DNA from: a virus
Lineage: Duplodnaviria; Caudoviricetes
Strand: one strand, 5' to 3'
Virus record (IMG/VR): IMGVR_UViG_3300027286_000002
Length of the DNA: 64,000 nt
Shown piece after piece: positions 4,947 to 62,001 of this stretch. The notes beneath the pieces are model-generated. The model saw only the letters and a list, made by a program, of their open reading frames with translations. It was not told where the DNA came from and did no database searches. How positions within the stretch are numbered: position 1 is the first letter of the stretch; each line of letters begins with the position of its first letter. Made by a program: the position numbers and the translations under genes.

Positions 4947-5345
4947 ATGAAGTATCTTATTTCATCTTTAAAGAATCGTTTAAATAAAATAGCAGGTGTT
5001 GAAAAGATTGCAGGTGGTCTTTTTAGTGAGATTTTTTTTAAGACTGTAGAAAAGCAATTGAAGTCTAATCCTGTGATTAAAAAATCAGAATATAAAGTAG
5101 CTGTGGATGATGATGCAGAAAGTATTGTTATTTATAAAGATGATCAAGAACTTGCATTAGTTTTTAGATTGATGTTAGAAAGTCCTAAAATTAATGGTTA
5201 TGCCATCTCTTGGGAAATCGCAGGATTTTCAAAGGTTTGGGATGGTAAAGAAAGCAATCTTACATCTGATGAAATTGAACAAGAACTCGTAGGTTATATT
5301 GTAAAGATGTTTAAACTCTCTTGGCAAAAAGGCTACCTTCAATAA
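4947..5345 (+). CDS. Hypothetical protein with basic leader ending KIAG (twice)
   Basis: ORF with AAAGG RBS; leader SSLKNRLNKIAG resembles STLKNRLKKAN of 60538. Confidence 0.75.
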   Translation: MKYLISSLKNRLNKIAGVEKIAGGLFSEIFFKTVEKQLKSNPVIKKSEYKVAVDDDAESIVIYKDDQELALVFRLMLESPKINGYAISWEIAGFSKVWDGKESNLTSDEIEQELVGYIVKMFKLSWQKGYLQ

Positions 5346-5350
5346 AATTT

Positions 5351-5389
5351 TGATATTCCCTTCTATTATAAAATAAAAAGGGAATATCA
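5351..5389 (+). promoter_or_regulatory. 12-bp perfect hairpin sequestering the RBS of 5391, with TATAAAATA in the loop
   Basis: TGATATTCCCTT (5351-5362) pairs with AAGGGAATATCA (5378-5389); ATG at 5391. Confidence 0.6.
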
Positions 5390-5390
5390 G

Positions 5391-6263
5391 ATGAGTAGAC
5401 AAGTTTTAATAAATAATGTAGTCAAAAGACATATCATTCGTTTAGCATCTATTGATGCTATTCGTGAAAGTAAAAAATATAAAACAGCTAGTGCTGGATA
5501 TGTTCGTTCTGAAATCACACCTGAAGTTTTAGAAGTTTTAGGCAATCATCTTTTCTATAAGACTGCTTTTATTAAAGACATTACTTCTTTATATGAAAAC
5601 ACTAAAAATTCTTTAATCCATATCTATGAAGAAATACAAAAGAAACCAAACAAATGGGAAGAAATTAAAAAAACCTTAAATCTCGATCCTAAAAATATTG
5701 GTTCTATGCTAATGGACTTGCCTAATTTTAAATCCAATTTTGGCAAGTGGTTAGAAAGTGTTATTAAAGATATACCTTTCTTAAACATCATGTATAAAGT
5801 GTCTAAATTAGAATATACACAAGCGAAACAATGGTTAGAGAACTTATATGCTAAACTACCTGCTAAAATCCAACAAGGTATAGATAAACTTAAAAATATG
5901 GCTACATCTGTTAAGGATTGGTTAGGAAAGATTTGGGATTTATTAAAAGAAAAAATTAAAAAGACAGATAACAAAGCAGTAAACATAGCTGTGTTTTTAG
6001 TCTATTTAGGTATTTCAAGAAAAATAGATGATGATACCTTTGCAAAGAAAAATCTAGTATCAGGACTAACAGGCAAATTAGATAGTGATCAGATACTAGA
6101 TGATTTACCTATGGATAAGTTAAGTGATTTCATATCTGCTCTTTTAGAGGATTTCATAGATATTGAAGATATTGTGAAATATAAGACTTTACCTTTTCAG
6201 ATTTATTTCCTTTATCAAGAAGGATATTTAGATGAAGAACTAAGAATATTGAAAGGACATTAG
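5391..6263 (+). CDS. Hypothetical protein, paralog 1 of a tandem triplet (KTAS leader)
   Basis: Shares leader, IYEE.QK.PN.WE..KK.L, and C-terminal FY.LYQ...LDE with 6266 and 7138. Confidence 0.8.
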   Translation: MSRQVLINNVVKRHIIRLASIDAIRESKKYKTASAGYVRSEITPEVLEVLGNHLFYKTAFIKDITSLYENTKNSLIHIYEEIQKKPNKWEEIKKTLNLDPKNIGSMLMDLPNFKSNFGKWLESVIKDIPFLNIMYKVSKLEYTQAKQWLENLYAKLPAKIQQGIDKLKNMATSVKDWLGKIWDLLKEKIKKTDNKAVNIAVFLVYLGISRKIDDDTFAKKNLVSGLTGKLDSDQILDDLPMDKLSDFISALLEDFIDIEDIVKYKTLPFQIYFLYQEGYLDEELRILKGH

Positions 6264-6265
6264 GA

Positions 6266-7141
6266 ATGAAAAGAGAAATTTTAATAAAACTTGCCTGTCA
6301 AATAGCAGTACATAAAAGCATTAAATATAAAACTGCATCACATTTAAGACAAGAACTTAATGCGACTACTTTAATACCTTTTGGCAATCAAATTGTTAAG
6401 TATGGTTCTATTAAAGGTCTTGTTGGTAAAATTAAACAAATCTATGAAGGTTTTCAAAAGATGCCAAACCTTTGGGAAAAGTTTAAAGAAAAATTAGGTA
6501 TCACTGCGACTAATGTTGTTTCTCTATATAAGCAACTTAATGAAAAGTTATCTGAATATCTTGAAGAAGGTAAAAAATGGATTGATGGACATAAACAGAA
6601 ACTAGCAAAAGAAAACAAGCTAATTTATTTTATGTTCTTATATGCAGAGAATGCACCTACAATAACAGGTTCTATAAAAACACTACTTGAAAAGATCAAT
6701 CCTGATAATTCATCTAAGCTGTCTAAAAAACTTAAACAATTATCAGATGGATTTGGAAACCTAAAAGACACAATAGATGAGTTCTTTAAAAAACATCCTG
6801 TTCTACATACAATCAGTATTCCTGCTAAAGCATATTTATTTTGGATCATTTGGGTCAATGTAGCTGAAGTCAGTTGGAAAATCACAGATATTATTAAAGG
6901 TTTTCTAGGTCAAATCTCATGGGGTGATCTTTTAGAATCACTACCTGAAAGTGGTTTAGGTTTTCTTATCCAAATCTTTATGCCTTTCATCCCAAGTGGC
7001 ATGGTTGCATCTTCTTTAAAGATAGGTTGGAATGCACTGATCATCCCTGCTATGGGTATACAATTTTATTATCTGTATCAACAACACTTAATAGATGAAC
7101 ATGGTAAACTGATTGAAAGTGAAGTAGAGAAACTAACATGA
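6266..7141 (+). CDS. Hypothetical protein with hydrophobic C-terminal helices, paralog 2 (KTAS leader)
   Basis: Extensive identity with 7138 (ELNATTLIPF.NQIVK, GWNALIIPAMG.QFYYLY). Confidence 0.85.
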   Translation: MKREILIKLACQIAVHKSIKYKTASHLRQELNATTLIPFGNQIVKYGSIKGLVGKIKQIYEGFQKMPNLWEKFKEKLGITATNVVSLYKQLNEKLSEYLEEGKKWIDGHKQKLAKENKLIYFMFLYAENAPTITGSIKTLLEKINPDNSSKLSKKLKQLSDGFGNLKDTIDEFFKKHPVLHTISIPAKAYLFWIIWVNVAEVSWKITDIIKGFLGQISWGDLLESLPESGLGFLIQIFMPFIPSGMVASSLKIGWNALIIPAMGIQFYYLYQQHLIDEHGKLIESEVEKLT

Positions 7142-8010
7142 AATATATAAAACTTGCCTGCATACAAGCAATAAAAGAAAGTAAAAAGATAAGGACAGCT
7201 AGTGCATATCAAGTTAGAAAAGAACTTAATGCGACTACCTTAATACCTTTTGCTAACCAAATTGTTAAACATGGTTCTCTTTTTGGACTAACAAGTAAAC
7301 TCAAAGATATTTATGAAAAGTACCAAGAGCAACCACAGATGTGGAATCTTTTTAAAAAGACTTTAGGTATTAATGCTATAGATAATGTTTCTCTATATCA
7401 CCAGCTTAATGATAAATTAGCAGGATATCTTGAACAAGGTAAAGAATGGGTCAATAAGCATAAACAACAGCTATCGGAAAAAAATAAGTATTTGTACTTT
7501 ATGTTCTTATATGCAGATAAAGCACCAACAGTAACAAGTTCAATAAACTATTTACTTGAAAGAGTAGATAGTGAAGAAAAGCAAATTATCATGCAGGCAT
7601 TTAAAAAATACAATGGTGGTTTTAATACCTTTGCAGAAATTATTGAAGATTTTTTTGATCATCATCCTGTTTTTGATGTCATGTCTATGCCTGCTAAAGC
7701 ATATGTATTTTGGTTAGTTTGGACAAATGTAACAGAAATAAGTTGGAAGGTTACAGATATCACTAAAGGATTTTTAGGTTTAATGTCATGGGGTGATCTT
7801 ATTCGTACTTTACCTGAAACAGGTTTAGGTTTACTTATTCAAGTATTTTGTCCTTTTATCCCAAGTGGAATGATTGCATCCTCTTTGAAGATAGGATGGA
7901 ATGCTTTAATAATACCTGCTATGGGTGCTCAATTTTATTATCTGTATCGCAGGCATTTAATAGATGAAAAAGGTAATCTAATTGAAAGTGAAGTTTTAAA
8001 ATTAGAATAG
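7138..8010 (+). CDS. Hypothetical protein with hydrophobic C-terminal helices, paralog 3 (RTAS leader)
   Basis: ATGA overlap with 6266; strong protein and DNA similarity to it. Confidence 0.85.
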   Translation: MKYIKLACIQAIKESKKIRTASAYQVRKELNATTLIPFANQIVKHGSLFGLTSKLKDIYEKYQEQPQMWNLFKKTLGINAIDNVSLYHQLNDKLAGYLEQGKEWVNKHKQQLSEKNKYLYFMFLYADKAPTVTSSINYLLERVDSEEKQIIMQAFKKYNGGFNTFAEIIEDFFDHHPVFDVMSMPAKAYVFWLVWTNVTEISWKVTDITKGFLGLMSWGDLIRTLPETGLGLLIQVFCPFIPSGMIASSLKIGWNALIIPAMGAQFYYLYRRHLIDEKGNLIESEVLKLE

Positions 8011-8090
8011 CATTTTTTAAGTAAATCAAATCCTTAATAATATAAGTAAATGGACAACAAAACTCTTCTTTTGTCAAAAGGAAAAAACAA

Positions 8091-9140: not shown

Positions 9141-9219
9141 AAAGTGATGGTATAATATAAAAAGATAGGCAATGTTGCTTATTAAAACACACACACACTT
9201 TTTTATAGGAATAATGATC

Positions 9220-9441
9220 ATGTCTGACAAAGTAAATGGTTATCAAATTCGTACAGATCTTTTACATTTAGCAACTCGTATTGTAGAAGAACAATCTCAA
9301 ACACAGCTTAAATTATTTGAAGCAAAATTACATATGGCAAAGTCTTTAGAAGATTTAGCCAAGCTAAATGCACCTGCCAATACAATTGAAGAAATTTTAT
9401 CTGTTGCTGATAAATTAAATCAATTCGTGCAAACTAAGTAG
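9220..9441 (+). CDS. Small hypothetical phage protein
   Basis: GYQIRTDLLHLA resembles a common uncharacterised phage N-terminus; AGGA RBS. Confidence 0.7.
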   Translation: MSDKVNGYQIRTDLLHLATRIVEEQSQTQLKLFEAKLHMAKSLEDLAKLNAPANTIEEILSVADKLNQFVQTK

Positions 9442-9708: not shown

Positions 9709-12700
9709 TTATTTATTGCCTTTCTTGCTTAGATCAAAAGGATTTAAAACAGGTTTCAAATCACCTCTCAATACTGCAATTTCTTTTTGTGTATTTTCTA
9801 AAGTTTTTTCATTTTCTAGTTCTTTAGTAATAGTAGTAAAAAGAGCATCGTCTTGTACTGCTAACATTCCCATTAAACTTTCAGATGATACTTCTTGATC
9901 TTCATCTGCATACTTTTTAGATGCTAATTTCATAGATGAAAGTTCAGGATTATTTTCTTTAAACATTTTTAAACTATCTAGAATAGCTACTCTTTCATTC
10001 ATATTAGCTTTGACAAGAACTTCTTTTAAGTCTTTCATATAAGTTTTTACAAGAGTAGATTTTTCTGATTTTGTTAACTGTGTTAAGATTTGATCTCTAA
10101 AGAACAAAAACCAACATTCAGTACTTTTAGTATCAAATGGATCTGTAGGTGCTGATAAATATTCTTCTAAAGTTTCAAAGCCTGCCTCTTTAACTTTTGC
10201 ATCTACATATTTAGTTAAATGCTTATATGACTTAGAATTGTCATCTAAAGATAAAGTAAGTTTTGTAGTACTACCAAAGAATTTCCATAGTTCTTCACCT
10301 GCTTTAACAACATTACCTTCAGAATCTGTAAAAGTGATTGCATAAAGATCTAAAAGACTATAAGTTTGTTGCTTGTAAACATCTGTCATTTCGGAAACAA
10401 GATAATAACATTTAGCTAGTTTTAAAAGCCACCAACCTGCACCATCTCTAAGGAAAGTAACAATTTGATGTTTTTGTTGAGAATTAAGTCCTTTAGTATC
10501 AGGATTTTTTAGTTTTGAAATTAAATCCAAAACACTTTCTTTATCTACTTTTACATCTACTGCTTTTGTTTTTAAACTTGCATTGTGTTCTTCGACTTTT
10601 TCAATATAGTTTTTCAATTCTTCCTGAAAAACCAATTGTGATTGTGCATCATTTCCTGCTGGTAGTGGTGAAACTAGATTAGTTGGATTTAAGAATTTTA
10701 ATACCAAATCAAAATTCTGTTGTAAAGGAGGATACTGTAGTGTAAGTATTAGCACAGTAGCATCATATCCAAACTTGGGCCAGATATAATAACCAATCAT
10801 AGGATTATGTCCTTGACCTTTTTTACCAAGTCCTGTTTCAGGATCAAAGCTATTAAAAGAACCACCACCATCTGTTACAAGTTCTTTTTTACCTGCCTTT
10901 TTACAAGCTACTAATTGAGAAAACAATGCTTTGTTTCCAATACTCTTTGGGGCACAAGTTGTTGTAAAAAACTCACAATTTTTTACTGAATCAGAATTGA
11001 CTGCTCTAATTTGTGATGCAATCCAATCGCCTTTTAACCTAATATGCTTTACATCAGGTACAGAAACACTACTTGTAATTTCAGCAGGTGTTACATTCAA
11101 AACACCTGATATACCTGAAACATCTAACTTTTCTTTCAATTCAGGTGTCAATACAGTAGTGCCTAATTGTTGTAGTATAGTTTTAATTGATGGATGATTA
11201 AAACGATTTGGATCTAAAACTGTATGCTTAACAGGATCTTCCTTCTTATTCTTAAAGTATTCATCAATTTCATTTGATGCTTCTCTTGTAGGCAAAATCG
11301 CTCTTGTAAATTCTTCTAAGTTTGGTGTTGTCATTTTATCACTTACAACACCATGTTCAATCGCACTGTAGTTTTCAGATAACTTGATAGCACCACTTTT
11401 TTTAATAATGTCATTAAAGAACTTCTGATCTGTTTCATGTACTAGACCTCTCAATTCATCTATTGACACTGTTGGTTTGCCTTTTTCATCATTAGGTGCT
11501 ACTGCATCTACCATCACTTCAAGAACTTCATTCTCCTGTCCTTGTCTAAATGCTCTTGCTGTTCTTTGCTTAATTTCTTCACTATCCCAACCATCTCTAT
11601 CTAAATGCACAACAGCTTTAAATTTTTGTAAATTAAATCCTCTTGCATAAGATGAATTACATACCATTGTAACTACTTGATCATTTTCTGCAATAAAGTT
11701 CTTAACAATCTTAATTGCCCATGTCATATCTACAGGCATATTTTTTACAGAAGGTTTAGCTACTGCACCTGTCTTTGACATTCTTTCTCTTTCAATCGCT
11801 TCAATTTGTTCTTCTGTTAAACGATTGATCTTAAAATTCTCTACATTGGTTTTTTTAGTAGCACGACCTTTCTTTAAAGGAACACCTGCCTGATAAAACA
11901 CAATCATATTAGATAAACAAAGAGCATGAATTTTTGTACGATGTCTCATAGAAATAGAAATGACTGTTTGTTTTGCTACATCATTATCTTCTGTGAAATA
12001 AATTGTTCGTTTAGATTCCTGTAAGAATTTAGTAGCTAAAGCTGTTGCTTGTTCTACCTTTGGATTTACAAAAGTATAAGTTTTTGGCTCAATGCCTTTC
12101 ATCTTATTATATTTTGCCATTGCTTTATGTGGATTTAAACTAAACAAGTGTAATAAAGCAATCTTATCCTTTAAATTACCAACTGCAATATCTTTTTCTT
12201 TTTGCAAGGTTACTGAAATATCTTCAGCATTTTGTGTCAATAAAGCAGAATACCTGTCTTTCATTTCTTTAAGCTGGTTTTTAATGCCACTTGCTACTTC
12301 TACATATGCCTTACCTACTTCAGGTGGCATATTTACAGCTGTGTTTAATTTCACTAAAGGTTTAAGTTGTTTTTTACCTACTGCCTCGTAATCCACATCC
12401 ATCTTATCTGCAAAGTAAGCATTTTGCTTTAACCAAATATTAAATTGATGTCTTGCTTCAGGTTTAATACCTACAAACTTGCCACCAATATTGATTGCAT
12501 ATTTATCTGCAAATGCTTTTTCTTTTGCAGGTTCAATAGGATTACCTGTAGATAAAGATACAAATCTAAATAAATCCATAGGTGATGTTTCTAATGCAGA
12601 TGCAGTTAGTAAAATCTTTCTTTTATGTTTTACTCCACTAATCGCTTGTGCTTTCTTTCCTGTTAAGGCTTCATTCACTTCATCAAAAATCATGCAGTAA

Positions 12701-36955: not shown

Positions 36956-37984
36956 ATGGTAATCAATGAAATCTATCGTATTGCAAAACAAACCAAAGGC
37001 AGTAGTGCTTTACAAAAGGCTTGTTTAAGAGCATTAACAGCTAAACCAAATATGAGAAGAAAAGCTAATGTTGGCAATATTGATGGTCAACTACAAGCAT
37101 TAACAGAACTTCCTGCAAATGAACAAAAAGAAGTCAAAGTAGGTGTTTTAAGTGAAATCGTAAATAAAGTTAAAGTCCAAATGCAATCTCATATAGATGC
37201 AGGTGCTTTAGATACCTTTAAAGATCTAATCAAAGAAACAGGTCTTGCGAATAAAATTCGTAGAGGTGAAAAGATTATTACTGCACCTTCAAATCCACTT
37301 GAAAAAAAGATTAGTGAAAAAGCTAAAAGTTTTGCAGATGTTTCAGATAGCATTGCTTTTCTAGGTCGTATTACTCAAGCAGAATCACCTGAAGAAATTG
37401 TTAAAGCACTTGATATTTCTATGGATGAATTTGAAGGATACCTTTCTGTACTTTTAGGTAAAAAAGTCACAGGTCTTATTGGTGGTGGTTGGAGAAAGTT
37501 TTACTCTGCTATTGCTGAAATTAAAGAAGTATATAAGTTATTTACTGTTGAACTTGCAATGACACTTTTAGAAGCTAGTGTTTTTAGTTTTGTAGTTATG
37601 GCTTTTGGTGGTGGTTCTTTTATGGATATTCTTCATAGTATCGGACATGGCATTAAAGAAGTTCTCTATATTGTCATCTTGTCTGTTTTATTATTGGATA
37701 TTAAAGATTCCGCCCAATTCATTCGCAAACAAGATATTTTAATTAAAGCTATTCCTATTGTGCTTTTTAATGATTTAATTCGTGCATTAAAATGGTCTTG
37801 GAATAAAATCTCTACTTTCTTTAGTAAAATCGTTTCTAATACTGTTGCTTTCTTTGATTCATGGTTTGGTGATGATGAAGAAGTTGAAACATCTAATCCC
37901 AAAGTTGCTGTCTTTAGAGAAACCTTAAGACTTGCATCTGTTAATCCTGTTTTCCATCAACGAGTTTTAGAACTTTTAGATTGA
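36956..37984 (+). CDS. Hydrophobic hypothetical protein with basic leader (RKAN) and trailer (KVAV..RLAS); paralog of 61018
   Basis: Shared C-terminal P....ND...A.KW..NK....F.....W..DEE block with 61018. Confidence 0.8.
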   Translation: MVINEIYRIAKQTKGSSALQKACLRALTAKPNMRRKANVGNIDGQLQALTELPANEQKEVKVGVLSEIVNKVKVQMQSHIDAGALDTFKDLIKETGLANKIRRGEKIITAPSNPLEKKISEKAKSFADVSDSIAFLGRITQAESPEEIVKALDISMDEFEGYLSVLLGKKVTGLIGGGWRKFYSAIAEIKEVYKLFTVELAMTLLEASVFSFVVMAFGGGSFMDILHSIGHGIKEVLYIVILSVLLLDIKDSAQFIRKQDILIKAIPIVLFNDLIRALKWSWNKISTFFSKIVSNTVAFFDSWFGDDEEVETSNPKVAVFRETLRLASVNPVFHQRVLELLD

Positions 37985-39098: not shown

Positions 39099-39485
39099 AT
39101 GATCCGTAGAAATCCTACTTCTTCTTTGAGAACTCGTTTAGCTTCTCAATATAAGAGAGCAAATCCTGCTCTCAAGCAAGAATATGCAAAAACAATCCAA
39201 ATTATTAAAAACCAAATGGGGAAACTTCTAAAAGATGGTGATCTTTTTTTACAAAAAAGATATCAACAACTTGAAGATCAAATGCCCTGGGACCAATTGT
39301 ATCATCTCCATGCAGAATTGACAGGCGAACAACTTGATCTTGAGGATATCAAGTATAATATTCTAACTCAATGGCAAGACTTAGCTTATAGTTTAACACC
39401 TTCACTTCCTGTGGAATCTACTAAGGACTTTGAAGAACTTATGTCATCTTTAGATCAACTTAAGAATGATGTAATTAAGAGATAA
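39099..39485 (+). CDS. Hypothetical protein with basic leader (SLRTRLASQYKRAN)
   Basis: AAAGGA RBS; leader motif. Confidence 0.75.
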   Translation: MIRRNPTSSLRTRLASQYKRANPALKQEYAKTIQIIKNQMGKLLKDGDLFLQKRYQQLEDQMPWDQLYHLHAELTGEQLDLEDIKYNILTQWQDLAYSLTPSLPVESTKDFEELMSSLDQLKNDVIKR

Positions 39486-39655: not shown

Positions 39656-40591
39656 TTAAAAAAGAGAATGCAATCCTTGATTTGGTGTAGCTATTGGCTT
39701 TTTAGGTTTAGAAATGGGTGTTCCAATTTTTCTTAATTTTAAATTTCCATTAAAAAAATCACATACTCTTTGTGTGGCAATATTAGAATACTTTTCATCT
39801 CTATCTATACTCATAGCTTTACGATTATTTTTAATGGATGCAATCAAAGTTGAGCCTACTCCACCAAAAGGATCAAGTATCCAATCATCTTCATCTGTAA
39901 ATGCCAAAACACACCTTTCTGCAATTTCTACAGGAAATTGACAAGGATGCTCTGTTTTTTCAGGATGTGCATTTTTCACATTAGGTACATCAAATATACC
40001 TTTTTCAAATTCGTTTTCTATTATTTCCCAAAAATCAGATGGATTTTTACCTAAAGGATTTCCACTAAGTTGTCCTTTTTTCGGTCCTTTAAAATGTTTT
40101 TTATCTGGATATAAAGAAGGTACTCTAATAGAGTCAAGATTGAAAGTATAGTCTTTAGTTTTTGTAAACCATAATAAAACTTCATACCTACCTGATAGCT
40201 TTTTTGTGCTATGTAAGCCATGCTCAAAATGCCATACTATACGATTTCTAAGCTGTAAACCTAGCTTCTTACAAATAGGATAAAAATAAAAATCTAAAGG
40301 AAACATTTCACCATTATTTACAAAAGTGCCTACCTGTAATACTAAACTGCCATTTGAATGTAGTATTCTAACTAATTCTACAAGTATATTTTCTTGCCAT
40401 TCTAAATAGACATCTAGTTTGGTTTGAGTTTCATATGACTTACCTATATTATAAGGTGGTGATGTCAAAATAAGTTTGAATTTCTCATTAGGCAAATTCT
40501 TAATCTCTTCTAAACTGTCTTTTGTAGCAATTACAATTGAACTGTCCTCTTCAAAACTATTAGATATTTCAAAATAAGATTTCATTAACAA
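39656..40591 (-). CDS. Beta-class amino DNA methyltransferase (probably N4-cytosine)
   Basis: LILTSPPYNIG (motif IV) precedes HPCQFP and WILDPFGGVGST (motif I). Confidence 0.85.
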   Translation of the reverse strand: MLMKSYFEISNSFEEDSSIVIATKDSLEEIKNLPNEKFKLILTSPPYNIGKSYETQTKLDVYLEWQENILVELVRILHSNGSLVLQVGTFVNNGEMFPLDFYFYPICKKLGLQLRNRIVWHFEHGLHSTKKLSGRYEVLLWFTKTKDYTFNLDSIRVPSLYPDKKHFKGPKKGQLSGNPLGKNPSDFWEIIENEFEKGIFDVPNVKNAHPEKTEHPCQFPVEIAERCVLAFTDEDDWILDPFGGVGSTLIASIKNNRKAMSIDRDEKYSNIATQRVCDFFNGNLKLRKIGTPISKPKKPIATPNQGLHSLF

Positions 40592-40661: not shown

Positions 40662-41081
40662 ATGAAATACCTTGCCTGCTTTTTATTCTTTCCCTTATAT
40701 ACTTTTGCTCAAGAAGATAAAGACTACCTTTTATCACCTTTGATTTTTCAACATGAAAACCAACTTGCTAAAACTGCTGAAACCATTAAAGAATCTGCCA
40801 AAGTAGATCTCAGTAGCCTTGCCATATTACCTTTCTTAAATGATAATGTTAAGAAATTAGAAAAACTACTCGTTGAAAAAGATAACCTGCTTAGAGAAAA
40901 AGATGCTGAAATTTTAAGACTTATCCAAGTCAATAACCAAATTGCTATCGAAAAGAAAGAATGTGAAGTAGATTTTAAACACTGTAAAAATGGAAACTAC
41001 CTACAATTAGGTGTATCAGGTTTAGCTACTGTTGCTACTGTTGTCACCAGCTTTGTTTGTTATCCTTCTAATCCTAATTAA
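40662..41081 (+). CDS. Exported coiled-coil protein with C-terminal hydrophobic helix
   Basis: Signal peptide MKYLACFLFFPLYTFAQ; coiled coil; C-terminal LGVSGLATVATVVTSFVCY. Confidence 0.65.
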   Translation: MKYLACFLFFPLYTFAQEDKDYLLSPLIFQHENQLAKTAETIKESAKVDLSSLAILPFLNDNVKKLEKLLVEKDNLLREKDAEILRLIQVNNQIAIEKKECEVDFKHCKNGNYLQLGVSGLATVATVVTSFVCYPSNPN

Positions 41082-42057
41082 AGATGTGTGCTTGACTTTC
41101 TGCATATGCTTGATTACTAATCTCTACCCACTTTGCTGTTAATTGCAATTCTCTAATATTCCTTGCTCCACTATAGCTTAATCCACTCTTAATATTAATT
41201 GCTATCTCATCTAATATATCTAACACTGATCCTTTGTAATTCACTTGATGACTTACACCTTCTACTGATCTTACATTTCCTCGCCATTGAGATTGTGCTT
41301 CTTTACTTGCCATACCTACATACTTCTTATATTTATTACCTTGTTCATCTGTATGTACTCTACCCGGGGCTTCATCTGTACCTGCTAAATATGAACCTAA
41401 CATGACAAAATCTGCACCACCTGCCAAACACTTTACCATATCACCTGTTGTCTTAATTCCACCATCTGCAATAATAGGTTTTTCATATGTAGATTTAGCA
41501 CAATCAAAAACACTAGCTAATGTAGGAATACCATGTCCTGTTTGAATACGAGTAGTACAAATAGAACCACCACCTATACCTACACGAACTGCATCTGCAC
41601 CATGATCTATTAAAAACTCATATCCATCTTGTGTAGCTACATTGCCAGCTATTACATAAATGTCTTTATGTCTTGCTTTCAATTCTTTTAATGTATCACC
41701 TACGATTTTAGTATGACCATGTGCAACATCTAAACAAAAGGTTGTGATGCCTGCATTAATAAACTTGTCTATACTGTCTAGTTCATTACAGCCAAAAGCA
41801 ACACAGGCTTTATTAGCATTAAAAGAAAGATGAGTACGATCAACAATACTATTATATCTATGAATGATACCAAGACCACCTTTAGATTGCATTGCGATTG
41901 CCATCTCTGTTTCTGTGACAGTAGTCATTGGTGATGAGATAATAGGTAAAGCATATTTCTGATTACCAAGAGATGAACTTAAATCAATTTCATCTCTTGA
42001 TGCGATACTAGAATATTGAGGTGAAATGAGATAGTCATTGAAAGTCTTTAATAGCAT
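41074..42057 (-). CDS. IMP dehydrogenase/GMP reductase family protein without CBS domains
   Basis: SSPM, DVAHGH, AGNVAT, VGIGGGSICTTR, IIADGGI, VMLGSYLAG..EAPG, GMAS, EGV; AAGGAG RBS before ATG 42057. Confidence 0.9.
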   Translation of the reverse strand: MLLKTFNDYLISPQYSSIASRDEIDLSSSLGNQKYALPIISSPMTTVTETEMAIAMQSKGGLGIIHRYNSIVDRTHLSFNANKACVAFGCNELDSIDKFINAGITTFCLDVAHGHTKIVGDTLKELKARHKDIYVIAGNVATQDGYEFLIDHGADAVRVGIGGGSICTTRIQTGHGIPTLASVFDCAKSTYEKPIIADGGIKTTGDMVKCLAGGADFVMLGSYLAGTDEAPGRVHTDEQGNKYKKYVGMASKEAQSQWRGNVRSVEGVSHQVNYKGSVLDILDEIAINIKSGLSYSGARNIRELQLTAKWVEISNQAYAESQAHIFN

Positions 42058-42130
42058 TTGTAGATACTCCTTTTTAAACAAAGAAATTATACATTGAAAA
42101 CAGATAAGACAAAATAAAAATATTTTTAAG

Positions 42131-42166
42131 TGAACTTGCAATTATTCTTATTCCTAAGTGTTATAT
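42131..42166 (+). promoter_or_regulatory. Putative phage promoter motif, copy 2
   Basis: TGAACTTGCAATTATTCTTATTCCTAAGTGTTATAT. Confidence 0.65.
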
Positions 42167-56097: not shown

Positions 56098-57471
56098 ATG
56101 TTAAACATGATTTCTTTTTTAAAAATGCTCATCAGCATTTTAACAAAAAAAACCAAAAACGAATGGAAATTTAAAATTCAAAATGGTGGTGTTATTTCAG
56201 GTGTACATACAATCTCAGGACTAGAACTTCTTTTAGAATTTAAAAGTAGACCTGTAGATATGGGAATGTCTGTTCTAGTGAATTTAATGATTACATCTAA
56301 TGATCCACAAGAAACCATAGAAGATACTAGAAATGAATACCTAATTACAGTGGACAATCAAATTCAAGATACTCTTGTTGTTGCTGATTGGATTATGGAA
56401 GGTCTAACATATGCAGAAAGAGCATGGTATCGTGGTTACTATCGTACTGCATCTACTCAAAAAACTTCTAATGATACTAGCAATCAAATCCTTGAACTAT
56501 TAGGTGGTAGAGATAATATCAAATCTTTCACTAATGGTGGTTCTGTTCAGATACTTTCAGGAAATAAAGGAATTATTTTCCCTAGACAACTTCCTTATGG
56601 TAAAGGCGATAAAATTTATTACATCCATGTCTTAGCAAATAACAATGGAAGTTATGATGTAAACTTTTTAGGTGCAGGTAAAACACCTAATGTTAAAAAG
56701 AGTTTAAAAGATGTGCCTGCAGAAAATCTTTTATTTGAGATTATGGAAAATGCTTATAGTGGTCGTACTGCTTCTACTCAAAAAACTTCTAATGAAATTG
56801 GCAATCAAATCCTTGAACTGTTAGGTGGAAATAGAACTTTAAAAATGATGGCAGGTGCAAAACAATTTGTTGGTATGCCTAATGGTGTTCAAATCCATAT
56901 TCCTAGAACAGGCAAAGGCATTGGTTTGATTATGATTACTCTTAATGGATCTGATAGCTATGATTTAAAGTTTTATAGTCCTTTCAGTTCAAAAACATTT
57001 GATCGTAAAGTCAAGAGTAGTGAAAATGATGTACCTGTAGAAAAATTGCTTTCTACTGTTGAATATCATACAGGTCTTTCTTTACGAGTACCTAAAATTG
57101 AACAAATACCAACTCCTCCAAATTGGAGTTTATTTGGTAGAAAAGCAGGCGAATTTGAAAATCCTGTAATTAATGGTGCTGATGATGTTATTAACCTTTT
57201 AGGTGGTGAAGAAAAAATTAAGTCTATGATGTATGGTTCTCATATTGCTAGATCTAATAAAGCTATGGGTGGTATTATTTTTTCAGTTCCTCTTGTTTTT
57301 GGTGTTGGTGTTGAACATATAGGTATCTTCTTAAATGATTTAGGTACATATAATATTGATTTCTATGGGAAAATGAAAAGTACTACACCTAATTTTAAAA
57401 AGAGATTGATCAATATACCTGCTGATAAAGTTAAAATGGCTATTGCAAAATATGCCAAACTTTATTTCTAA
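56098..57471 (+). CDS. Protein with three tandem copies of an uncharacterised (QILELLGG) domain separated by RTAS/RKAG linkers
   Basis: NQILELLGG twice and DVINLLGG, each followed by I.F..P......I......G.Y...F.G/S. Confidence 0.8.
   Translation: MLNMISFLKMLISILTKKTKNEWKFKIQNGGVISGVHTISGLELLLEFKSRPVDMGMSVLVNLMITSNDPQETIEDTRNEYLITVDNQIQDTLVVADWIMEGLTYAERAWYRGYYRTASTQKTSNDTSNQILELLGGRDNIKSFTNGGSVQILSGNKGIIFPRQLPYGKGDKIYYIHVLANNNGSYDVNFLGAGKTPNVKKSLKDVPAENLLFEIMENAYSGRTASTQKTSNEIGNQILELLGGNRTLKMMAGAKQFVGMPNGVQIHIPRTGKGIGLIMITLNGSDSYDLKFYSPFSSKTFDRKVKSSENDVPVEKLLSTVEYHTGLSLRVPKIEQIPTPPNWSLFGRKAGEFENPVINGADDVINLLGGEEKIKSMMYGSHIARSNKAMGGIIFSVPLVFGVGVEHIGIFLNDLGTYNIDFYGKMKSTTPNFKKRLINIPADKVKMAIAKYAKLYF
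56443..56795 (+). repeat. 32-bp direct repeat (56443-56474 and 56764-56795, one mismatch) encoding RTASTQKTSN
   Basis: CGTACTGC(A/T)TCTACTCAAAAAACTTCTAATGA, followed in both copies by CAATCAAATCCTTGAACT.TTAGGTGG. Confidence 0.9.
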
Positions 57472-57474
57472 TCA

Positions 57475-57711: not shown

Positions 57712-57776
57712 TTTTTTCAAATCTTTTTTTTGTTTAATATGTTTATCTATTATATACAAGACAAAGGATATCTAAA

Positions 57777-58769
57777 ATGAAATATCTTGCTAAAGAACGA
57801 TCTGATGAAGAAAAAAAAGAAATCTATGATAAGTGGAAAAAACTTATCAATATGTCAGAAAAAGAATTAAAAGAATGGGGCGATAATCCAGATCACCTTG
57901 AAGCTTCTTTAAATAGAGAAGAGGCTAAAGATAATGGCAAAATCCAATCAGGTTATGATTCTTTTCATCGTATTAAAAGAAGAAAAGACAAACCTTTTGA
58001 AGATTGGACTGCTCAAGATTTTGATAATGCTAGTCAAGAGAATGGTTTTAATGGTCGTATGCTTGGTGGATCACCCGGGCAACCTGTAGGTTCAACAGGT
58101 AGAAGTAAATGGGAAATCTCTTTAAGAAATTGGGGACATGATCCATCTAAAGCTAGTAGTCCTGCATATAGCAAATGGAAAAAATGGAAAAAAGATAATG
58201 AAGAAGAGATTAAAAAATCCAAAGCTAAAAAAGAAGCATCTCTTATCATGCGAGCATATAAATTAAGTTATCTTTTTGATAACACAAGTAGTCTTAGAAC
58301 TGCCTGCATGAATTGTCTTATCTCATCTACACCACAGACAAAAACAGCTTTTAAAAATGAGTTAATAAAAGTAGCTAGTAGAAACCATGTGTTTAATGAA
58401 AGCATAGTGAATAATACCTTTGCTATGAGAAAAGCCACTACATTAAGCCAAATCAAAACAGGTTTAAATCCTAATATCGTAGCTAGTGATAAACAAATCA
58501 CAGGTGAATTTAATGGTAAAAATAAAGTAAATACCTTTCAAGTAGGTGAGTATCAAGTCAATGTTCTAGTCGATACCAATAACAATGTATTTACAAATTG
58601 TGATTGTGGATTTTGGAAATATCAAGGTGCTGAGTATCATGCAAAACAAGACGGATATTTATTAGGTGATCCACAAGGCACTGCTGATAAACCACAAGTC
58701 AAAGATCCAAAGGGAAACAATAAGCTATGTAAACACACATTAGCTGTTTTAGAAAGGATTATCAAATGA
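57777..58769 (+). CDS. Two-domain protein: DUF3140-like N-domain plus SWIM zinc finger, with internal basic tag
   Basis: WKKLINMS..EL..W...SLRNWGHDP; CDC...CKH; internal SLRTAC...KTAF...KVAS...RKAT. Confidence 0.65.
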   Translation: MKYLAKERSDEEKKEIYDKWKKLINMSEKELKEWGDNPDHLEASLNREEAKDNGKIQSGYDSFHRIKRRKDKPFEDWTAQDFDNASQENGFNGRMLGGSPGQPVGSTGRSKWEISLRNWGHDPSKASSPAYSKWKKWKKDNEEEIKKSKAKKEASLIMRAYKLSYLFDNTSSLRTACMNCLISSTPQTKTAFKNELIKVASRNHVFNESIVNNTFAMRKATTLSQIKTGLNPNIVASDKQITGEFNGKNKVNTFQVGEYQVNVLVDTNNNVFTNCDCGFWKYQGAEYHAKQDGYLLGDPQGTADKPQVKDPKGNNKLCKHTLAVLERIIK

Positions 58770-59638
58770 ATAAGCAAGGTTGTATTGTTGCTCTAGGTCA
58801 ATGGAATGATGATCGTGTTCTTTTTAAGAATAGAGATCGTAATTATAGAAATTGCATAACATTCCACCATGAATTAAGACATGGTGTAGAAGTCTTATAT
58901 TTTAAAGATGCTCTCACAGGATGGATAGAAGGTATGAATCAATATGGCATAGGTATTATTAATGCTACTCTTATGCCTTCAATAGATGAAAGTCGCTTGA
59001 AAGATTCAGCTAAAGGTGATGGTGAAATTATTCTTAAAGCACTAGAACAAAAAACTGTTGAAGATGCTATGGATATGATTTGTGGATATAAGAATGGACT
59101 ATATGGACATACAATTATATCTAATGCAGATAAGTCATATTCAGTAGAGCATTTTGAAGGTGAAGAACCTGTCTGTAAAGAAATTAATCCAAATGAAGAT
59201 GTTCATGTAAGAACAAATCATGGTATAGATATTCCTCATGCAGGTGTACAAAATGGTAATGGTAGAAAATCCACTATCACTAGAAGATTAAGAGCATTAA
59301 AAGCATTAAGAAATACTGAAAGTAAAGAAAGCATTATTGAGAATATCTATAAATACAGACCAAATGGTTTTGATGATCCACATAATATGGTTAGGAATCT
59401 ACCAAATGGTTTAAAGACAGGCTGTCAATATGTGATTGATCCACAAGAGAAAACATTTAATTTTTATACCTTACCATACAAGGTTAGGATTTTAGGATAT
59501 AAGTGTAATGTAGTGAAACCACGATTGAAATTAAATTTGTTTAGGATTTGTAAAGAAGATGGTCAAGGTAATTTTAAATTAGAACCATACAAAATACCAA
59601 AAGAAACCAATCCATTCTTAAAAGGTAAATGGAGATGA
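58766..59638 (+). CDS. Ntn-hydrolase (peptidase C45/acylase-like) with N-terminal Cys nucleophile
   Basis: GCIVAL...FKNRDR...EGMNQYGIGIIN...RTNH. Confidence 0.65.
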   Translation: MNKQGCIVALGQWNDDRVLFKNRDRNYRNCITFHHELRHGVEVLYFKDALTGWIEGMNQYGIGIINATLMPSIDESRLKDSAKGDGEIILKALEQKTVEDAMDMICGYKNGLYGHTIISNADKSYSVEHFEGEEPVCKEINPNEDVHVRTNHGIDIPHAGVQNGNGRKSTITRRLRALKALRNTESKESIIENIYKYRPNGFDDPHNMVRNLPNGLKTGCQYVIDPQEKTFNFYTLPYKVRILGYKCNVVKPRLKLNLFRICKEDGQGNFKLEPYKIPKETNPFLKGKWR

Positions 59639-60060
59639 TATATTTTGCTTATGGTAGTAATACCAATCCTAAAGTTATGTTATCAAGAATACCGAATGCA
59701 CAATTTTATGGTAGGTATAGTCTAAAAGATTGGGAATTAAGATTTGCAGGACATTCTAGAAACCATCGTCAAAATGGTGTTTTAGATATTAAACCAAATC
59801 CTAATTCTACAGTACATGGTATTTTATGGCAGATACCTGATGATAGCATCTCTTCTTTAGATCATGAAGAAGGATGTAAATACCATCACTTTTCTTTTTT
59901 ATTAAACACAGGTGAAAAAGCATTTAGCTACACAATGGTAAGAGATGCTATGAAAAATAAACCACATTTAGAATATGTGGATATCGTATTAAATGGATAT
60001 AAGTTATTTGGTTTGCCAAAACAAGATGTTATGCTTGCCTACTACAAATCCCTTGTATAA
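59629..60060 (+). CDS. Gamma-glutamylcyclotransferase (AIG2/GGCT) family protein
   Basis: YFAYGSN, V.GILW, LDHEEG, P...Y...VL.GY...GLP. Confidence 0.85.
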   Translation: MEMIYFAYGSNTNPKVMLSRIPNAQFYGRYSLKDWELRFAGHSRNHRQNGVLDIKPNPNSTVHGILWQIPDDSISSLDHEEGCKYHHFSFLLNTGEKAFSYTMVRDAMKNKPHLEYVDIVLNGYKLFGLPKQDVMLAYYKSLV

Positions 60061-60086
60061 TTAAAATAAAACAAAGGAATATTAAA

Positions 60087-60479
60087 ATGCCTTCTTACAG
60101 CTATATCTGCAAAGAATGTGAACATGAATTTAATGTCACTAAAAAAATCTCTGAATACAATAAACCTGAAGCTTGTCCTGAATGTTCTGCGAATGACTGT
60201 ACAAGACAAATCACTATGCCACAAGTCATGTTTAAAGGTGATAGCTGGATAGATAAGAATAATCGTATCAGTAAACAGATGTCAGATAAAAATAAGAAAC
60301 TTGCTGTTAGAGAAAATGAAATGAAGAGAGATGCACCTAGTGTTAAGCTAGTACCTAATGTAAATGGTGAAAGAGTAGATTCTTGGTCGGATGCTCAAAA
60401 ACTTGCCAAAGATTTAGGCAAGAATACAGAAAGCTATAGTGAACTTGTTAAGAAAGAAGATACCTTAAAGAAAAGTTAA
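60087..60479 (+). CDS. FmdB-type zinc-ribbon protein
   Basis: MPSYSYICKECEHEF...CPECS...F.G..W. Confidence 0.8.
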   Translation: MPSYSYICKECEHEFNVTKKISEYNKPEACPECSANDCTRQITMPQVMFKGDSWIDKNNRISKQMSDKNKKLAVRENEMKRDAPSVKLVPNVNGERVDSWSDAQKLAKDLGKNTESYSELVKKEDTLKKS

Positions 60480-60537
60480 TAATGTTTTAATATAAGATAT
60501 ATTATGTATATAACCTCTTTTCAAAGGATTAAAGCAA

Positions 60538-60948
60538 ATGGCAAAGTTATCTACTCTTAAAAATAGATTAAAGAAAGCGAATGAAATGCTTTCACATACC
60601 ATGTTTGATGAATATGATTTTAATCAAGATCAAATGATTGGTCGTGATGAATGGGAAGGCAATGATGATATGTTTTCTTTATTAGATAGCAATAAAGATG
60701 AATATCTTGATTCAGATGAAATTTCTCAAGGTGTTGGTCAATCTTTTTCTCGTTATGCGAAAGATGAAGAATATTTAACACCACAAGAAATTGCAGATAT
60801 TATGGGTGGTACTTTAGTGTCTGTTAAGCCTGCTAAAACTGCTCGTACTAAAAAAGCAGAAAGTGAAAGATATTTAACACCACAAGAGATCGCTGATATT
60901 ATGGGTGGTAAACTTGTATCTGTTAAGACTGCTCGTAAAAGATTTTAA
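60538..60948 (+). CDS. EF-hand-like protein with basic leader and a duplicated C-terminal 20 aa motif
   Basis: DFNQDQMIGRDE and DSNKDEYLDSDE loops; YLTPQEIADIMGG.LVSVK twice, 99 bp apart. Confidence 0.7.
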   Translation: MAKLSTLKNRLKKANEMLSHTMFDEYDFNQDQMIGRDEWEGNDDMFSLLDSNKDEYLDSDEISQGVGQSFSRYAKDEEYLTPQEIADIMGGTLVSVKPAKTARTKKAESERYLTPQEIADIMGGKLVSVKTARKRF

Positions 60949-61017
60949 TATTAAATTTATATTTTAATCCTTGTTTGTTATAAAAAACATTCACTTAAAA
61001 AACAAGGATGGTCAAAA

Positions 61018-62001
61018 ATGAATCGCTCTCAAACGATTGCTACTTTATATAAGTTATCTTTCCAAACACCTAAAGGTCATTCTTTAAGACAGGCTTGTCT
61101 TATTGCTATGGGTAAAGTTCGTGTTGCTAGTGATGCCAAAGTTGAAACTATTGTTGAAGATTTAGCTGATGCACCTAAAGATGTTCAGAATGAAGCTAAA
61201 TTAAATCTAGTTGCTGAAGCTATGGTTTCTACTGTAGAAGAACATGAAAAGAAACTTGCACCTAAAGGTCTAAATAAAATCAAAGCATGGATTAAAAAAC
61301 ATAGTGTTACTATTCAAAATATCCAAAATAAAAACTTTGCTGTAGTATCTGCTCCTGTTGATGCAGTTTCTATTGCTTTTGAGGTTATTGATCTTAATCT
61401 CAATAAAACAAAAAGTGGTGGCGATATTTCAGGTACTATTGCTTTTATTGCATCTGTTCTTTCTGCTGAAAGTGCTGAAGATCTTTTAAAAGCTGAAAGT
61501 AAAGAATGGGAAAAATTTAAACCTTATCTACCTACTTTCTTAGGTTTAGGTGCAGTCGCTGTTGAAGAAAATTGGATCAGTATCCAAAAATATGCTTTGA
61601 AATATGGATATGAAGCTCTTCATGCTGTTGAAATGTGGTTGCATGGTGCATCTTGGTTAAAAGTAGCAGGTGCTGTTGCAGGATCTTTTGCAGTCATTTT
61701 GACTCTTTGTCTTTTGTTCGGATCACATAATGTTTATATGCTCTTGAAAAAAGCCGCCGCTTTGGTATTTGGTCTACCTATGGCTGTTATTAATGATGTC
61801 CTTAGTGCTGTCAAATGGGGATATAATAAAGTTAAAGGTATCTTTGATGATGCAGGTGCTAAACTTAAAGCATGGTGGGATGAAGAAGAAGAAACTGTTG
61901 TTAAGAAAACTGCCAATCGTCTTGTTATCCGTGAATTTAAAAAACTCGCTATGCAAGATGAAAAATTCTATCGTTTAGCCTCTCAAACATTTGCTCTTTA
62001 A
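61018..62001 (+). CDS. Hydrophobic hypothetical protein with basic leader (RVAS) and trailer (KKTAN..KLA); paralog of 36956
   Basis: Leader SLRQACL resembles ALQKACL of 36956; shared C-terminal block. Confidence 0.8.
   Translation: MNRSQTIATLYKLSFQTPKGHSLRQACLIAMGKVRVASDAKVETIVEDLADAPKDVQNEAKLNLVAEAMVSTVEEHEKKLAPKGLNKIKAWIKKHSVTIQNIQNKNFAVVSAPVDAVSIAFEVIDLNLNKTKSGGDISGTIAFIASVLSAESAEDLLKAESKEWEKFKPYLPTFLGLGAVAVEENWISIQKYALKYGYEALHAVEMWLHGASWLKVAGAVAGSFAVILTLCLLFGSHNVYMLLKKAAALVFGLPMAVINDVLSAVKWGYNKVKGIFDDAGAKLKAWWDEEEETVVKKTANRLVIREFKKLAMQDEKFYRLASQTFAL

What the first reader, a model, noticed from the sequence alone, without database searches (positions are those of the whole stretch)
4947..62001. 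Shared basic helical tag ending in [KR]-x-A-[SNG] on about a dozen unrelated proteins: candidate capsid-loading/maturation signal
Seen: otherwise unrelated ORFs carry a 15-40 aa basic leader, trailer or linker with a helix (I.[RK]LA, SL[RK].AC/RL) and a [KR]-[TVKIRL]-A-[SNG] motif. Examples: 4947 LKNRLNKIAG; 5391 IIRLAS..KYKTAS; 6266 LIKLAC..KYKTAS; 7138 IKLAC..IRTAS; 36956 LQKACL..RRKAN and C-terminal KVAV..LRLAS; 39099 SLRTRLASQYKRAN; 56098 RTAS twice plus RKAG; 57777 SLRTAC..KVAS..RKAT; 60538 LKNRLKKAN; 61018 SLRQACL..RVAS and KKTAN; weaker ones at the C-termini of 9709 (MKLASKKYA) and UvrD (KTSS). The replication genes dnaB, dnaN and the primase parts show no such leader. Established: T4 internal proteins use a short capsid-targeting peptide that the prohead protease removes. 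Inference: this is a modular address and/or protease site defining a packaged, injected protein cargo of membrane proteins, helicases, EF-hand and SWIM proteins.
Basis: partly seen in the sequence, partly recalled or inferred. Interest (0 to 1): 0.8.

Follow-up and report, generated by a model that had tools for sequence, protein, structure and literature searches.

The report
Head-protease cut-site tags on phage proteins
A giant freshwater phage marks about ten otherwise unrelated proteins with short basic tags ending in Lys/Arg-x-Ala-Ser/Asn/Gly, and the same signal fills its capsid scaffold and flanks its head-maturation protease, so the tags are most likely protease cut sites on proteins loaded into the capsid, a known principle with a new code.

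Summary
[KR]-x-A-[SNG] occurs 16 times in the first 40 residues of the window's proteins against 2.9±1.7 in shuffles. After collapsing paralogues, 10 of 60 families carry it against 2.6±1.6. The motif was fixed beforehand and the enrichment repeats in 60 genes beyond the window and in a distant relative.

I walked along near-identical contigs to the head module, about 36-46 kb past the window's end. The 690-aa acidic scaffold-like protein holds 21 copies (2.1 expected). The capsid protein has KLAS at residues 27-30. The head protease has a herpesvirus-assemblin/T4-gp21 fold, with sites at residue 25 and straight after its catalytic domain. The latter is conserved in 77 homologues (K/R 71/77, Ala 71/77), including phage G and Tunturi_5.

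Best reading: this is the cut-site code of the prohead protease, in the P3-x-P1 register of T4 and phiKZ but ending in Ala|Ser as in herpesviruses. The basic leaders probably also act as capsid addresses; one family's leader is 68-84% conserved against 35% for its body. Cleavage, packaging and injection are inferred, not shown.

Several single hits are chance (UvrD N-terminus, ORFs 49812 and 59629, thymidine kinase P-loop). Other first-stage readers noted this motif elsewhere in this genome. The scan also found analogous leader codes, with other motifs, in at least 30 other genomes.

The parts
4947..5012 (+). N-terminal leader of ORF 4947-5345 (aa 1-22), short type S-S-L-K-x-R-L ... KIAG twice
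   Evidence: net charge +4
5391..5489 (+). N-terminal leader of family-A paralogue 5391-6263 (aa 1-33), RLAS and KTAS
6266..6337 (+). N-terminal leader of family-A paralogue 6266-7141 (aa 1-24), KLAC and KTAS
   Evidence: leader pattern kept in 27 homologues down to 31% identity
7138..7200 (+). N-terminal leader of family-A paralogue 7138-8010 (aa 1-21), KLAC and RTAS
36956..37066 (+). N-terminal leader of family-B membrane protein 36956-37984 (aa 1-37), QKAC and RKAN
   Evidence: the columns invariant across the family lie mostly in this leader and in the C-tail
37889..37984 (+). C-terminal tail of 36956-37984 with RLAS
39099..39161 (+). N-terminal leader of orphan ORF 39099-39485 (aa 1-21), S-S-L-R-T-R-L-A-S-Q-Y-K-R-A-N
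   Evidence: no homologues outside this phage
56443..56454 (+). RTAS linker before domain copy 1 in ORF 56098-57471
56764..56775 (+). RTAS linker before domain copy 2 (phrog_9437 domain, aa 234-330)
   Evidence: the domain is a stand-alone 96-aa protein in relative L001
57139..57150 (+). RKAG linker before domain copy 3
58230..58439 (+). Internal tag module of ORF 57777-58769 (aa 152-221: KEAS, RTAC, KVAS, RKAT) between a DUF3140-like N-domain and a SWIM zinc-finger domain
60538..60579 (+). N-terminal leader of EF-hand protein 60538-60948 (aa 1-14), S-T-L-K-N-R-L-K-K-A-N
   Evidence: (KKAS in the 80%-identical orthologue)
61018..61128 (+). N-terminal leader of family-B membrane protein 61018-62001 (aa 1-37), RQAC and RVAS
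   Evidence: 84% and 68% identical in homologues whose bodies are 36% and 35% identical
61906..62001 (+). C-terminal tail of 61018-62001 with KTAN and RLAS
   Evidence: 58% and 55% identical in the same homologues
9919..9930 (-). KLAS 72 aa from the C-terminus of the 1948-aa helicase-like protein (weak candidate)
   Evidence: conservation not tested

Best explanation
The window is part of a ~350-kb, 31% G+C, uncultivated freshwater phage. [KR]-x-A followed by S/N/G (C in some leaders; A or S in relatives) is the recognition site of its prohead (head-maturation) protease, a serine protease with the herpesvirus-assemblin/T4-gp21 fold. I read the register as P3 = Lys/Arg, P1 = Ala, with the cut before Ser/Asn/Gly.

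The protease carries such sites at its own N-terminus and directly after its catalytic domain. The acidic scaffold-like protein is studded with them, including one 21 residues before its conserved C-terminal tail. The major capsid protein has one about 30 residues from its start.

The tagged proteins in the window carry the same sites at the end of a basic 14-37-residue leader, in a C-terminal tail, or in linkers between domains. They include two families of membrane proteins, an EF-hand protein, a SWIM-finger protein, a three-domain polyprotein and small orphans.

Inferred mechanism: the basic leaders bind the acidic scaffold core while the prohead assembles, so the proteins are enclosed. The protease then trims leaders, tails and linkers and chops up the scaffold. 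The mature proteins stay in the head and leave with the DNA.

Shown: motif enrichment, its positions, its conservation, and the identity and fold of the protease. Inferred: the scissile bond, the addressing role, packaging and injection.
For: 1. Terminal enrichment in the window: 16 against 2.9±1.7; paralogue-collapsed, 10 of 60 families against 2.6±1.6.

2. Replication with the motif fixed beforehand. In 60 genes beyond the window in near-identical contigs: N-terminal 14 against 2.9±1.8 and C-terminal 10 against 2.9±1.8. Without protease, scaffold and capsid protein: 11 against 2.7 and 9 against 2.7. In a 44% G+C relative: 11 against 2.4±1.5.

3. Head module of the close relative (L009). The 498-aa protein matches phrog_18299 'head maturation protease' (E 2e-14) and the capsid protein matches phrog_2522 (E 6e-51). 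The scaffold-like 690-aa protein holds 21 sites against 2.13±1.48.

4. The protease model (pLDDT 79) best matches VZV protease (Z 9.7), T4 gp21 (Z 8.8) and HCMV protease (Z 7.2). T4 gp21 is also the top Foldseek hit.

5. In 77 aligned homologues of the protease, the site after the catalytic domain has K/R in 71, Ala in 71 and Ser in 39. The N-terminal site has Arg in 54, Ala in 41 and Ser/Ala in 51.

6. The same pattern occurs in cultured or assembled relatives. Tunturi_5: protease KVAS, scaffold 9 against 2.5, 'DNA ejection protein' 14 against 3.8, capsid protein KLAA-S. Phage G gp19: KVAS after the domain. LR745208.1 (54% G+C): same gene order, scaffold 11 against 3.2.

7. The scaffold's C-terminal tail and the [KR]-[TV]-A-S site before it are conserved between phages of 31% and 54% G+C, while the middle of the protein is not.

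8. Tags are conserved in orthologues: 57777, 60538, family A and family B. The family-B leader is much better conserved than its body.

9. Tags sit at domain junctions.

10. The principle is established for T4 (capsid targeting sequence, gp21; PMC9026906) and for SPN3US (A-x-E, N-terminal propeptides; PMC10052503).
Against: No proteomic or biochemical data exist for this phage or, as far as I could find, for any member of this protease family, so cleavage at the motif is inferred.

The scissile bond is not determined; a cut elsewhere in or near the motif would fit the sequence data equally well.

The protease, scaffold and capsid genes were read from near-identical relatives, not from the window's own contig.

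The strong conservation of the family-B leader and tail could mean that they function in the mature protein and are not removed.

The phage G capsid protein lacks the strict motif at the homologous place.

The four-residue pattern gives chance hits.

A co-folding test of protease and leader gave no answer.
Confidence: 0.7

Rival explanations
1. The motif is the protease's site only in the head-module proteins. The leaders and tails on the window's proteins are a shared, shuffled helical module that works in the mature proteins (oligomerisation, or membrane or scaffold binding) and is not removed.
For: The family-B leader and tail are the best conserved parts of the protein. Families A and B have hydrophobic, probably membrane-spanning segments. 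There is no evidence of processing.
Against: The leaders end in exactly the motif that fills the scaffold. The motif is enriched at termini of unrelated proteins in three data sets. It lies in linkers between domains that exist as separate proteins elsewhere.
Confidence: 0.15
2. The tags are cut or recognised by another enzyme: a host signal peptidase (A-x-A), a Prp-type protease as for ribosomal protein L27 and staphylococcal phage 80alpha (from my own knowledge), or one of the phage's zinc metallopeptidases noted by another first-stage reader.
For: Ala at P1 with a small P1' residue also suits signal peptidase I. A nine-gene metallopeptidase array is reported about 50 kb beyond the window (unchecked).
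Against: By inspection the leaders have no hydrophobic core. The motif's best conserved occurrences are in the prohead protease itself and in its neighbouring scaffold, which is the signature of self- and scaffold-processing.
Confidence: 0.07
3. Chance or composition: a basic, Ala- and Ser-containing pattern in an AT-rich proteome, inflated by paralogues.
For: The pattern is short. Several hits are demonstrably chance. Paralogues contribute 6 of the 16 N-terminal hits.
Against: Shuffles that keep each protein's composition, local N-terminal shuffles, paralogue collapse and three independent replications all reject it.
Confidence: 0.02

Closest known systems
Phage T4 capsid targeting sequence (CTS) of internal proteins IPI-III and Alt, removed by prohead protease gp21 (PMC9026906)
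   Same: A short N-terminal peptide on otherwise unrelated proteins ends in the cut site of an assemblin-fold prohead protease. The same site occurs in the scaffold core, the capsid protein and the protease itself. Specificity lies at P3 and P1.
   Different: T4's code is L/I-x-E with a cut after Glu. Here it is K/R-x-A followed by a small residue. The leaders here are longer (14-37 aa), strongly basic and often hold two or three sites. Tags also occur at C-termini and between domains. The cargo includes membrane proteins.
Giant phages SPN3US, phiKZ and 201phi2-1: protease gp245/gp175 cutting after A-x-E or S/A/G-x-E in many head and ejection proteins (PMC10052503, PMC5694885)
   Same: A giant phage whose many head-internal proteins carry N-terminal propeptides defined by one protease motif. 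Propeptides can hold several sites.
   Different: The motif differs (acidic P1 there, Ala here). No sequence similarity of the protease was detected by Pfam. Here nothing has been verified by mass spectrometry.
Herpesvirus assemblin with its release (R) and maturational (M) sites (PMC4498786; the consensus (V/L/I)-x-A|S is from my own knowledge)
   Same: The fold matches (VZV protease Z 9.7). Ala-Ser lies at the presumed cut. There is a site straight after the catalytic domain, followed by a C-terminal extension, and a site about 20 residues before the conserved C-terminal tail of the scaffold.
   Different: P3 is basic here rather than a hydrophobic P4. Protease and scaffold are separate genes, not nested in-frame genes. 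No sequence-level membership was found.
Leader and protease codes found earlier by this scan in other uncultivated phages, such as [KR]-x-[FY]-S (e1-3233626, e1-2903700) and L/I-x-E leaders (e1-3862018)
   Same: The same logic: one motif ends the leaders of many proteins and recurs in the scaffold, the capsid protein and the protease. The K-x-F-S code shares the basic P3 and the Ser at P1'.
   Different: P1 is Ala here, not Phe/Tyr or Glu. I did not test those findings.

Membership tests
Prohead-protease-processed head proteins with targeting propeptides (T4 CTS type, as a functional class) | The phage encodes a prohead protease of the assemblin/gp21 fold next to the scaffold and capsid genes | tested here: met
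   L009 5518-7014: phrog_18299, E 2e-14. Fold matches VZV protease (Z 9.7) and T4 gp21 (Z 8.8). Read from a near-identical relative, not from the window.
Prohead-protease-processed head proteins with targeting propeptides (T4 CTS type, as a functional class) | One short motif ends the leaders of unrelated proteins and recurs in the scaffold, the capsid protein and the protease | tested here: met
Prohead-protease-processed head proteins with targeting propeptides (T4 CTS type, as a functional class) | Proteins are cut at the motif in mature virions | not testable with these tools
   No proteomic data. The Tunturi_5 paper reports no mass spectrometry. The phage G proteomics paper used fully tryptic searches.
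Prohead-protease-processed head proteins with targeting propeptides (T4 CTS type, as a functional class) | The leader is sufficient to load a foreign protein into the capsid | not testable with these tools
   Needs a cultivable relative and fusion constructs
T4 or phiKZ sequence code (L/I-x-E or A/S/G-x-E) | Glu at P1 | tested here: not met
   The conserved sites have Ala at that position: 71 of 77 after the protease domain
Herpesvirus assemblin (peptidase S21) system | Assemblin fold | tested here: met
   1vzv Z 9.7, 8j3s Z 7.2, 1fl1 Z 5.8. Z values are moderate; the top two stand above unrelated MCE-domain rows at Z about 6.
Herpesvirus assemblin (peptidase S21) system | Sequence membership in the family | tested here: not met
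   No Pfam hit. No match of the family profile to any PDB sequence.
Herpesvirus assemblin (peptidase S21) system | Cut between Ala and Ser at a release site after the protease domain and at a maturation site near the scaffold's C-terminus | tested here: inconclusive
   Motifs lie at the corresponding places (KVAS 267-270 of the protease; RTAS 667-670 of the 690-aa scaffold). The bond that is cut is unknown.
Sec-type signal peptide | Hydrophobic core of about 10-15 residues between a basic start and an A-x-A site | tested here: not met
   By inspection of the leaders, charged residues interrupt every leader

The most novel reading that the evidence does not exclude
A family of at least 1,783 representative assemblin-fold head proteases, found in huge freshwater and soil phages, phage G, Tunturi_5 and cluster C mycobacteriophages, shares an undescribed specificity: basic P3, Ala P1 and a small P1', which is herpesvirus-like at the cut. 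In this clade a transferable, multi-site basic leader or linker module loads dozens of proteins into the capsid, including membrane proteins and polyproteins. If so, the injected proteome of these uncultivated phages could be read from sequence alone.
Probability: 0.45. Interest if true: 0.7.

Novelty: new variant of a known kind. Interest (0 to 1): 0.55.

Why it matters
If the code is real, it gives a sequence rule for predicting which proteins a large clade of huge phages packs into the capsid and delivers with the DNA. That clade includes cultivable phage G, Tunturi_5 and cluster C mycobacteriophages.

It points to unusual cargo (membrane proteins, an EF-hand protein, a SWIM-finger protein, cleavable polyproteins).

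It adds a herpesvirus-like Ala|Ser specificity to the phage side of the assemblin family, which bears on the shared origin of phage and herpesvirus capsid maturation.

It would also offer a new tag for loading foreign proteins into large phage capsids.

The principle itself is well known from T4 and phiKZ-like phages, and this scan has met it repeatedly.

Tried and rejected
Attempts that led nowhere:
- No whole genome is held for the window.
- The window has no DNA-level relative among deposited phages or in viral contigs.
- Records behind my loci could not be searched whole, so I walked 10 kb at a time with the look-up of encoding contigs.
- Pfam and PHROGs gave nothing for most tagged proteins.
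- ORF 39099 has no homologues outside this phage.
- An Atlas search for ORF 61018 gave only a weak, unnamed lead.
- AlphaFold2 of ORF 61018 was poor (mean pLDDT 40.6). Only the leader and tail reach 56-72 and are helical.
- Co-folding of the protease domain with the leader of ORF 39099 gave no verdict, which is neither support nor evidence against.
- The protease family profile hits no PDB sequence.
- L015, fetched to find the helicase orthologue, has a different gene order, so the helicase's C-terminal KLAS remains untested.

Hits rejected as tags:
- UvrD N-terminal KRAN and ORF 49812 RMAG are not conserved.
- ORF 59629 RFAG lies inside the cyclotransferase-like protein (judged from its sequence; no family search was run on it).
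- Thymidine kinase GKTAN is the P-loop.

Hits left undecided: those near the ends of the tail-module proteins 24752 and 30100, because tail proteins are not expected substrates of a prohead protease.

Full report
What the window is. The 64-kb window has 31% G+C and is densely coded. It holds:
- replication genes: DnaB-type helicase, SNF2 helicase, UvrD, sliding clamp;
- a tail module: chaperone-like, tape-measure-sized and CHAP-bearing proteins;
- many ORFs with no family.

One tagged protein has 99%-identical copies on a 350,655-bp metagenomic contig, a 69%-identical copy on a 316,221-bp contig, and 39-42%-identical copies elsewhere. The DNA occurs in river, lake and freshwater metagenomes of 20 studies. 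So this is an uncultivated giant freshwater phage.

The observation. Counts:
- [KR].A[SNG] occurs 43 times in about 20,700 residues against 27.4±5.2 in shuffles.
- 16 lie in the first 40 residues against 2.9±1.7, reached by none of 2000 shuffles.
- Shuffling only the N-terminal 43 residues gives the same result.
- With one member kept per paralogue family, 10 of 60 families have an N-terminal hit against 2.6±1.6.

The leaders carry a net charge of +4 to +8.

Beyond the four-residue pattern there is real homology. Families 5391/6266/7138 and 36956/61018 and the middle of 57777 share a module with L-[KR]-x-A-C, then [KR]-x-A-[SN] 10-20 residues later. ORFs 4947, 39099 and 60538 share a shorter S-[ST]-L-[KR]-x-R-L start.

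I walked along contigs that encode identical proteins to about 48 kb beyond the window. With the motif fixed beforehand, 60 genes there have 14 N-terminal hits against 2.9±1.8 and 10 C-terminal hits against 2.9±1.8. Without protease, scaffold and capsid protein the counts are still 11 and 9 against 2.7. A more distant relative (44% G+C, 316,823 bp) has 11 N-terminal hits in 31 genes against 2.4±1.5. Many terminal tags there have the form [KR]-[ILV]-A-S-x-Y.

The head module. About 36-46 kb beyond the window's end (as read on L009) lie, in order:
- the portal;
- a 222-aa protein starting with S-S-L-K-T-R-I-K-R-A-S;
- a 1178-aa Lys/Glu-rich protein;
- a 498-aa protein;
- a 690-aa acidic protein;
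- a 213-aa protein;
- a 293-aa protein.

The 498-aa protein matches the PHROG family 'head maturation protease' (E 2e-14) and the 293-aa protein matches 'major head protein' (E 6e-51). The 690-aa protein holds 21 copies of the motif against 2.13±1.48. The protease has four: RVAS at 25, KVAS at 267, KQAS at 405 and RLAS at 451. The capsid protein has KLAS at 27-30.

The protease family. A full search found 1,783 representatives at E up to 0.001 and 321 at E up to 1e-30. In 77 aligned homologues of ordinary length:
- the site just after the catalytic domain has K/R in 71, Ala in 71 and Ser in 39;
- the N-terminal site has Arg in 54, Ala in 41, and Ser or Ala next in 51.

The AlphaFold2 model of residues 1-276 (pLDDT 79) best matches varicella-zoster protease (Z 9.7), T4 gp21 (Z 8.8) and cytomegalovirus protease (Z 7.2). 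T4 gp21 also heads the Foldseek list, at a weak E-value. The enzyme therefore has the assemblin/gp21 fold. The catalytic residues were not assigned; invariant candidates are H58, H130, S181 and H232.

Relatives. Deposited phages with this protease include Tunturiibacter phage Tunturi_5 (41% identity), an assembled 485-kb phage LR745208.1 (58%), Bacillus phage G gp19 (34%), BcepSauron and cluster C mycobacteriophages.
- Tunturi_5: the protease ends its domain with KVAS; the next gene has 9 sites against 2.5; the annotated DNA ejection protein has 14 against 3.8; the capsid protein has K-L-A-A-S at the homologous place.
- Phage G gp19 has KVAS after the domain, but its capsid protein lacks the strict motif.
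- LR745208.1 (54% G+C) has the same gene order and a scaffold with 11 sites against 3.2.

Its scaffold is alignable to ours only over the N-terminal 140 residues and the last 47. The last 47 contain [RK]-[TV]-A-S followed by a conserved tail, L-S-K-L-W-E-S-A-P-D-x-S-K-x-F. This places a cut site just before the part of a scaffold that normally holds the capsid protein, as at the herpesvirus maturational site (PMC4498786).

In relatives the residue after Ala is often Ala. In this phage it never is, because Ala-Ala is almost absent from the proteome (see below).

Conservation and modularity of the tags.
- In family B, the leader (residues 1-38) is 84% and 68% identical in two homologues whose bodies are 36% and 35% identical. 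The C-terminal tail is 58% and 55% identical.
- In 27 homologues of family A, the leader keeps its pattern down to 31% identity, with Ser sometimes replacing the last Ala.
- One homologue, P0180, consists of the N-domain of ORF 57777 (70% identity over 139 residues), the tag module, and a family-A body (44% over 282 residues).
- In ORF 56098 the motif lies in the linkers before each of three copies of a domain. In the 69% relative that domain is a free-standing 96-residue protein.
- The tags of 57777 and 60538 are kept in that relative, whereas the UvrD and 49812 hits are not.

Mechanism. The simplest reading is that [KR]-x-A is the P3-x-P1 recognition of the prohead protease. This is the same register as L/I-x-E in T4 and A-x-E in SPN3US (PMC9026906, PMC10052503). 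The cut would fall before a small residue, as in herpesvirus assemblins (own knowledge).

Self-sites bracket the catalytic domain, and the scaffold is cut to pieces and released from the shell. Proteins whose leaders, tails or linkers carry the site are trimmed inside the prohead.

That the leaders also address the proteins to the prohead is an inference from three points: their strong conservation, their positive charge opposite a very acidic scaffold, and the T4 precedent. Packaging and injection rest on analogy only.

Rivals are a shared helical module that is not removed, another protease, and chance. They are weighed in the fields above. Chance is excluded.

Comparison and novelty. The kind of system is known from T4 and phiKZ-like phages. 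This scan has reported analogous leader codes in at least 30 other genomes, among them a [KR]-x-[FY]-S code. Other first-stage readers noted the present motif in other windows of this genome, including in the capsid protein, scaffold and protease. I used that as a lead and verified it.

New here are:
- the code itself;
- its conservation across a very large protease family that includes cultivable phages;
- the multi-site leaders, C-terminal tags and linker use;
- the membrane-protein cargo.

I found no paper describing this specificity in the library searched, which is not proof that none exists.

Noticed in passing
whole window: Ala-Ala dipeptides are almost absent: 3 against about 76 expected from composition. 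GCNGC occurs 5 times against 60.5±8 in shuffles. All five are GCCGC, so GCWGC is absent altogether. This looks like avoidance of a restriction site, strong enough to shape the proteome. It explains why the residue after the motif's Ala is never Ala here but often is in relatives. Relatives L001, L003 and L009 also have only 3 GCNGC each in about 21 kb.
   Followed up: partly
56098-57471 (+); L003 5825-6877; L001 7815-8105: The copy number of a phrog_9437 domain varies. The window has three copies joined by motif-bearing linkers (457 aa). The 99%-identical relative has a 350-aa protein. The 69% relative has a single free-standing 96-aa domain.
   Followed up: partly
58766-59638 (+) and 59629-60060 (+): An Ntn-hydrolase-like protein (Pfam AAT, E 1e-6) and a gamma-glutamyl-cyclotransferase-like protein lie among the tagged genes. 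The second identification comes from its sequence and from an AIG2_2 hit on the orthologue in L006. The cyclotransferase-like gene is missing from the close relative L003.
   Followed up: no
L009 11032-11982; protease homologues P0012, P0015, P0041, P0051 and others: A LAGLIDADG homing endonuclease gene follows the capsid gene. Many protease homologues are 860-1850 aa long, with the protease match split into 3-6 stretches, as expected of inteins or other insertions.
   Followed up: no
P0180 (metagenomic protein, 443 aa): A natural fusion of the DUF3140-like N-domain of ORF 57777 to a family-A membrane protein through the tag module. That N-domain is thus a recurrent partner placed upstream of tagged cargo.
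   Followed up: partly
41074-42141 (-) and 39656-40591 (-): An IMP dehydrogenase/GMP reductase family gene (E 5e-93) and an N6/N4 DNA methylase (E 4e-48) lie between structural and tagged genes.
   Followed up: no
L014 (Mycobacterium phage Alice gp90, 1511 aa): In cluster C mycobacteriophages the homologous protease domain is the N-terminal part of a 1511-aa protein just upstream of the capsid gene. It has 17 [KR].A[SNGA] against 6.0±2.3, so it may be a protease-scaffold fusion using the same code.
   Followed up: partly
60538-60948 (+), C-terminal half: The EF-hand protein ends in two copies of a 25-30-residue repeat (Y-L-T-P-Q-E-I-A-D-I-M-G-G ... V-S-V-K), each followed by K-T-A-R. The 80% orthologue has one copy.
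   Followed up: no
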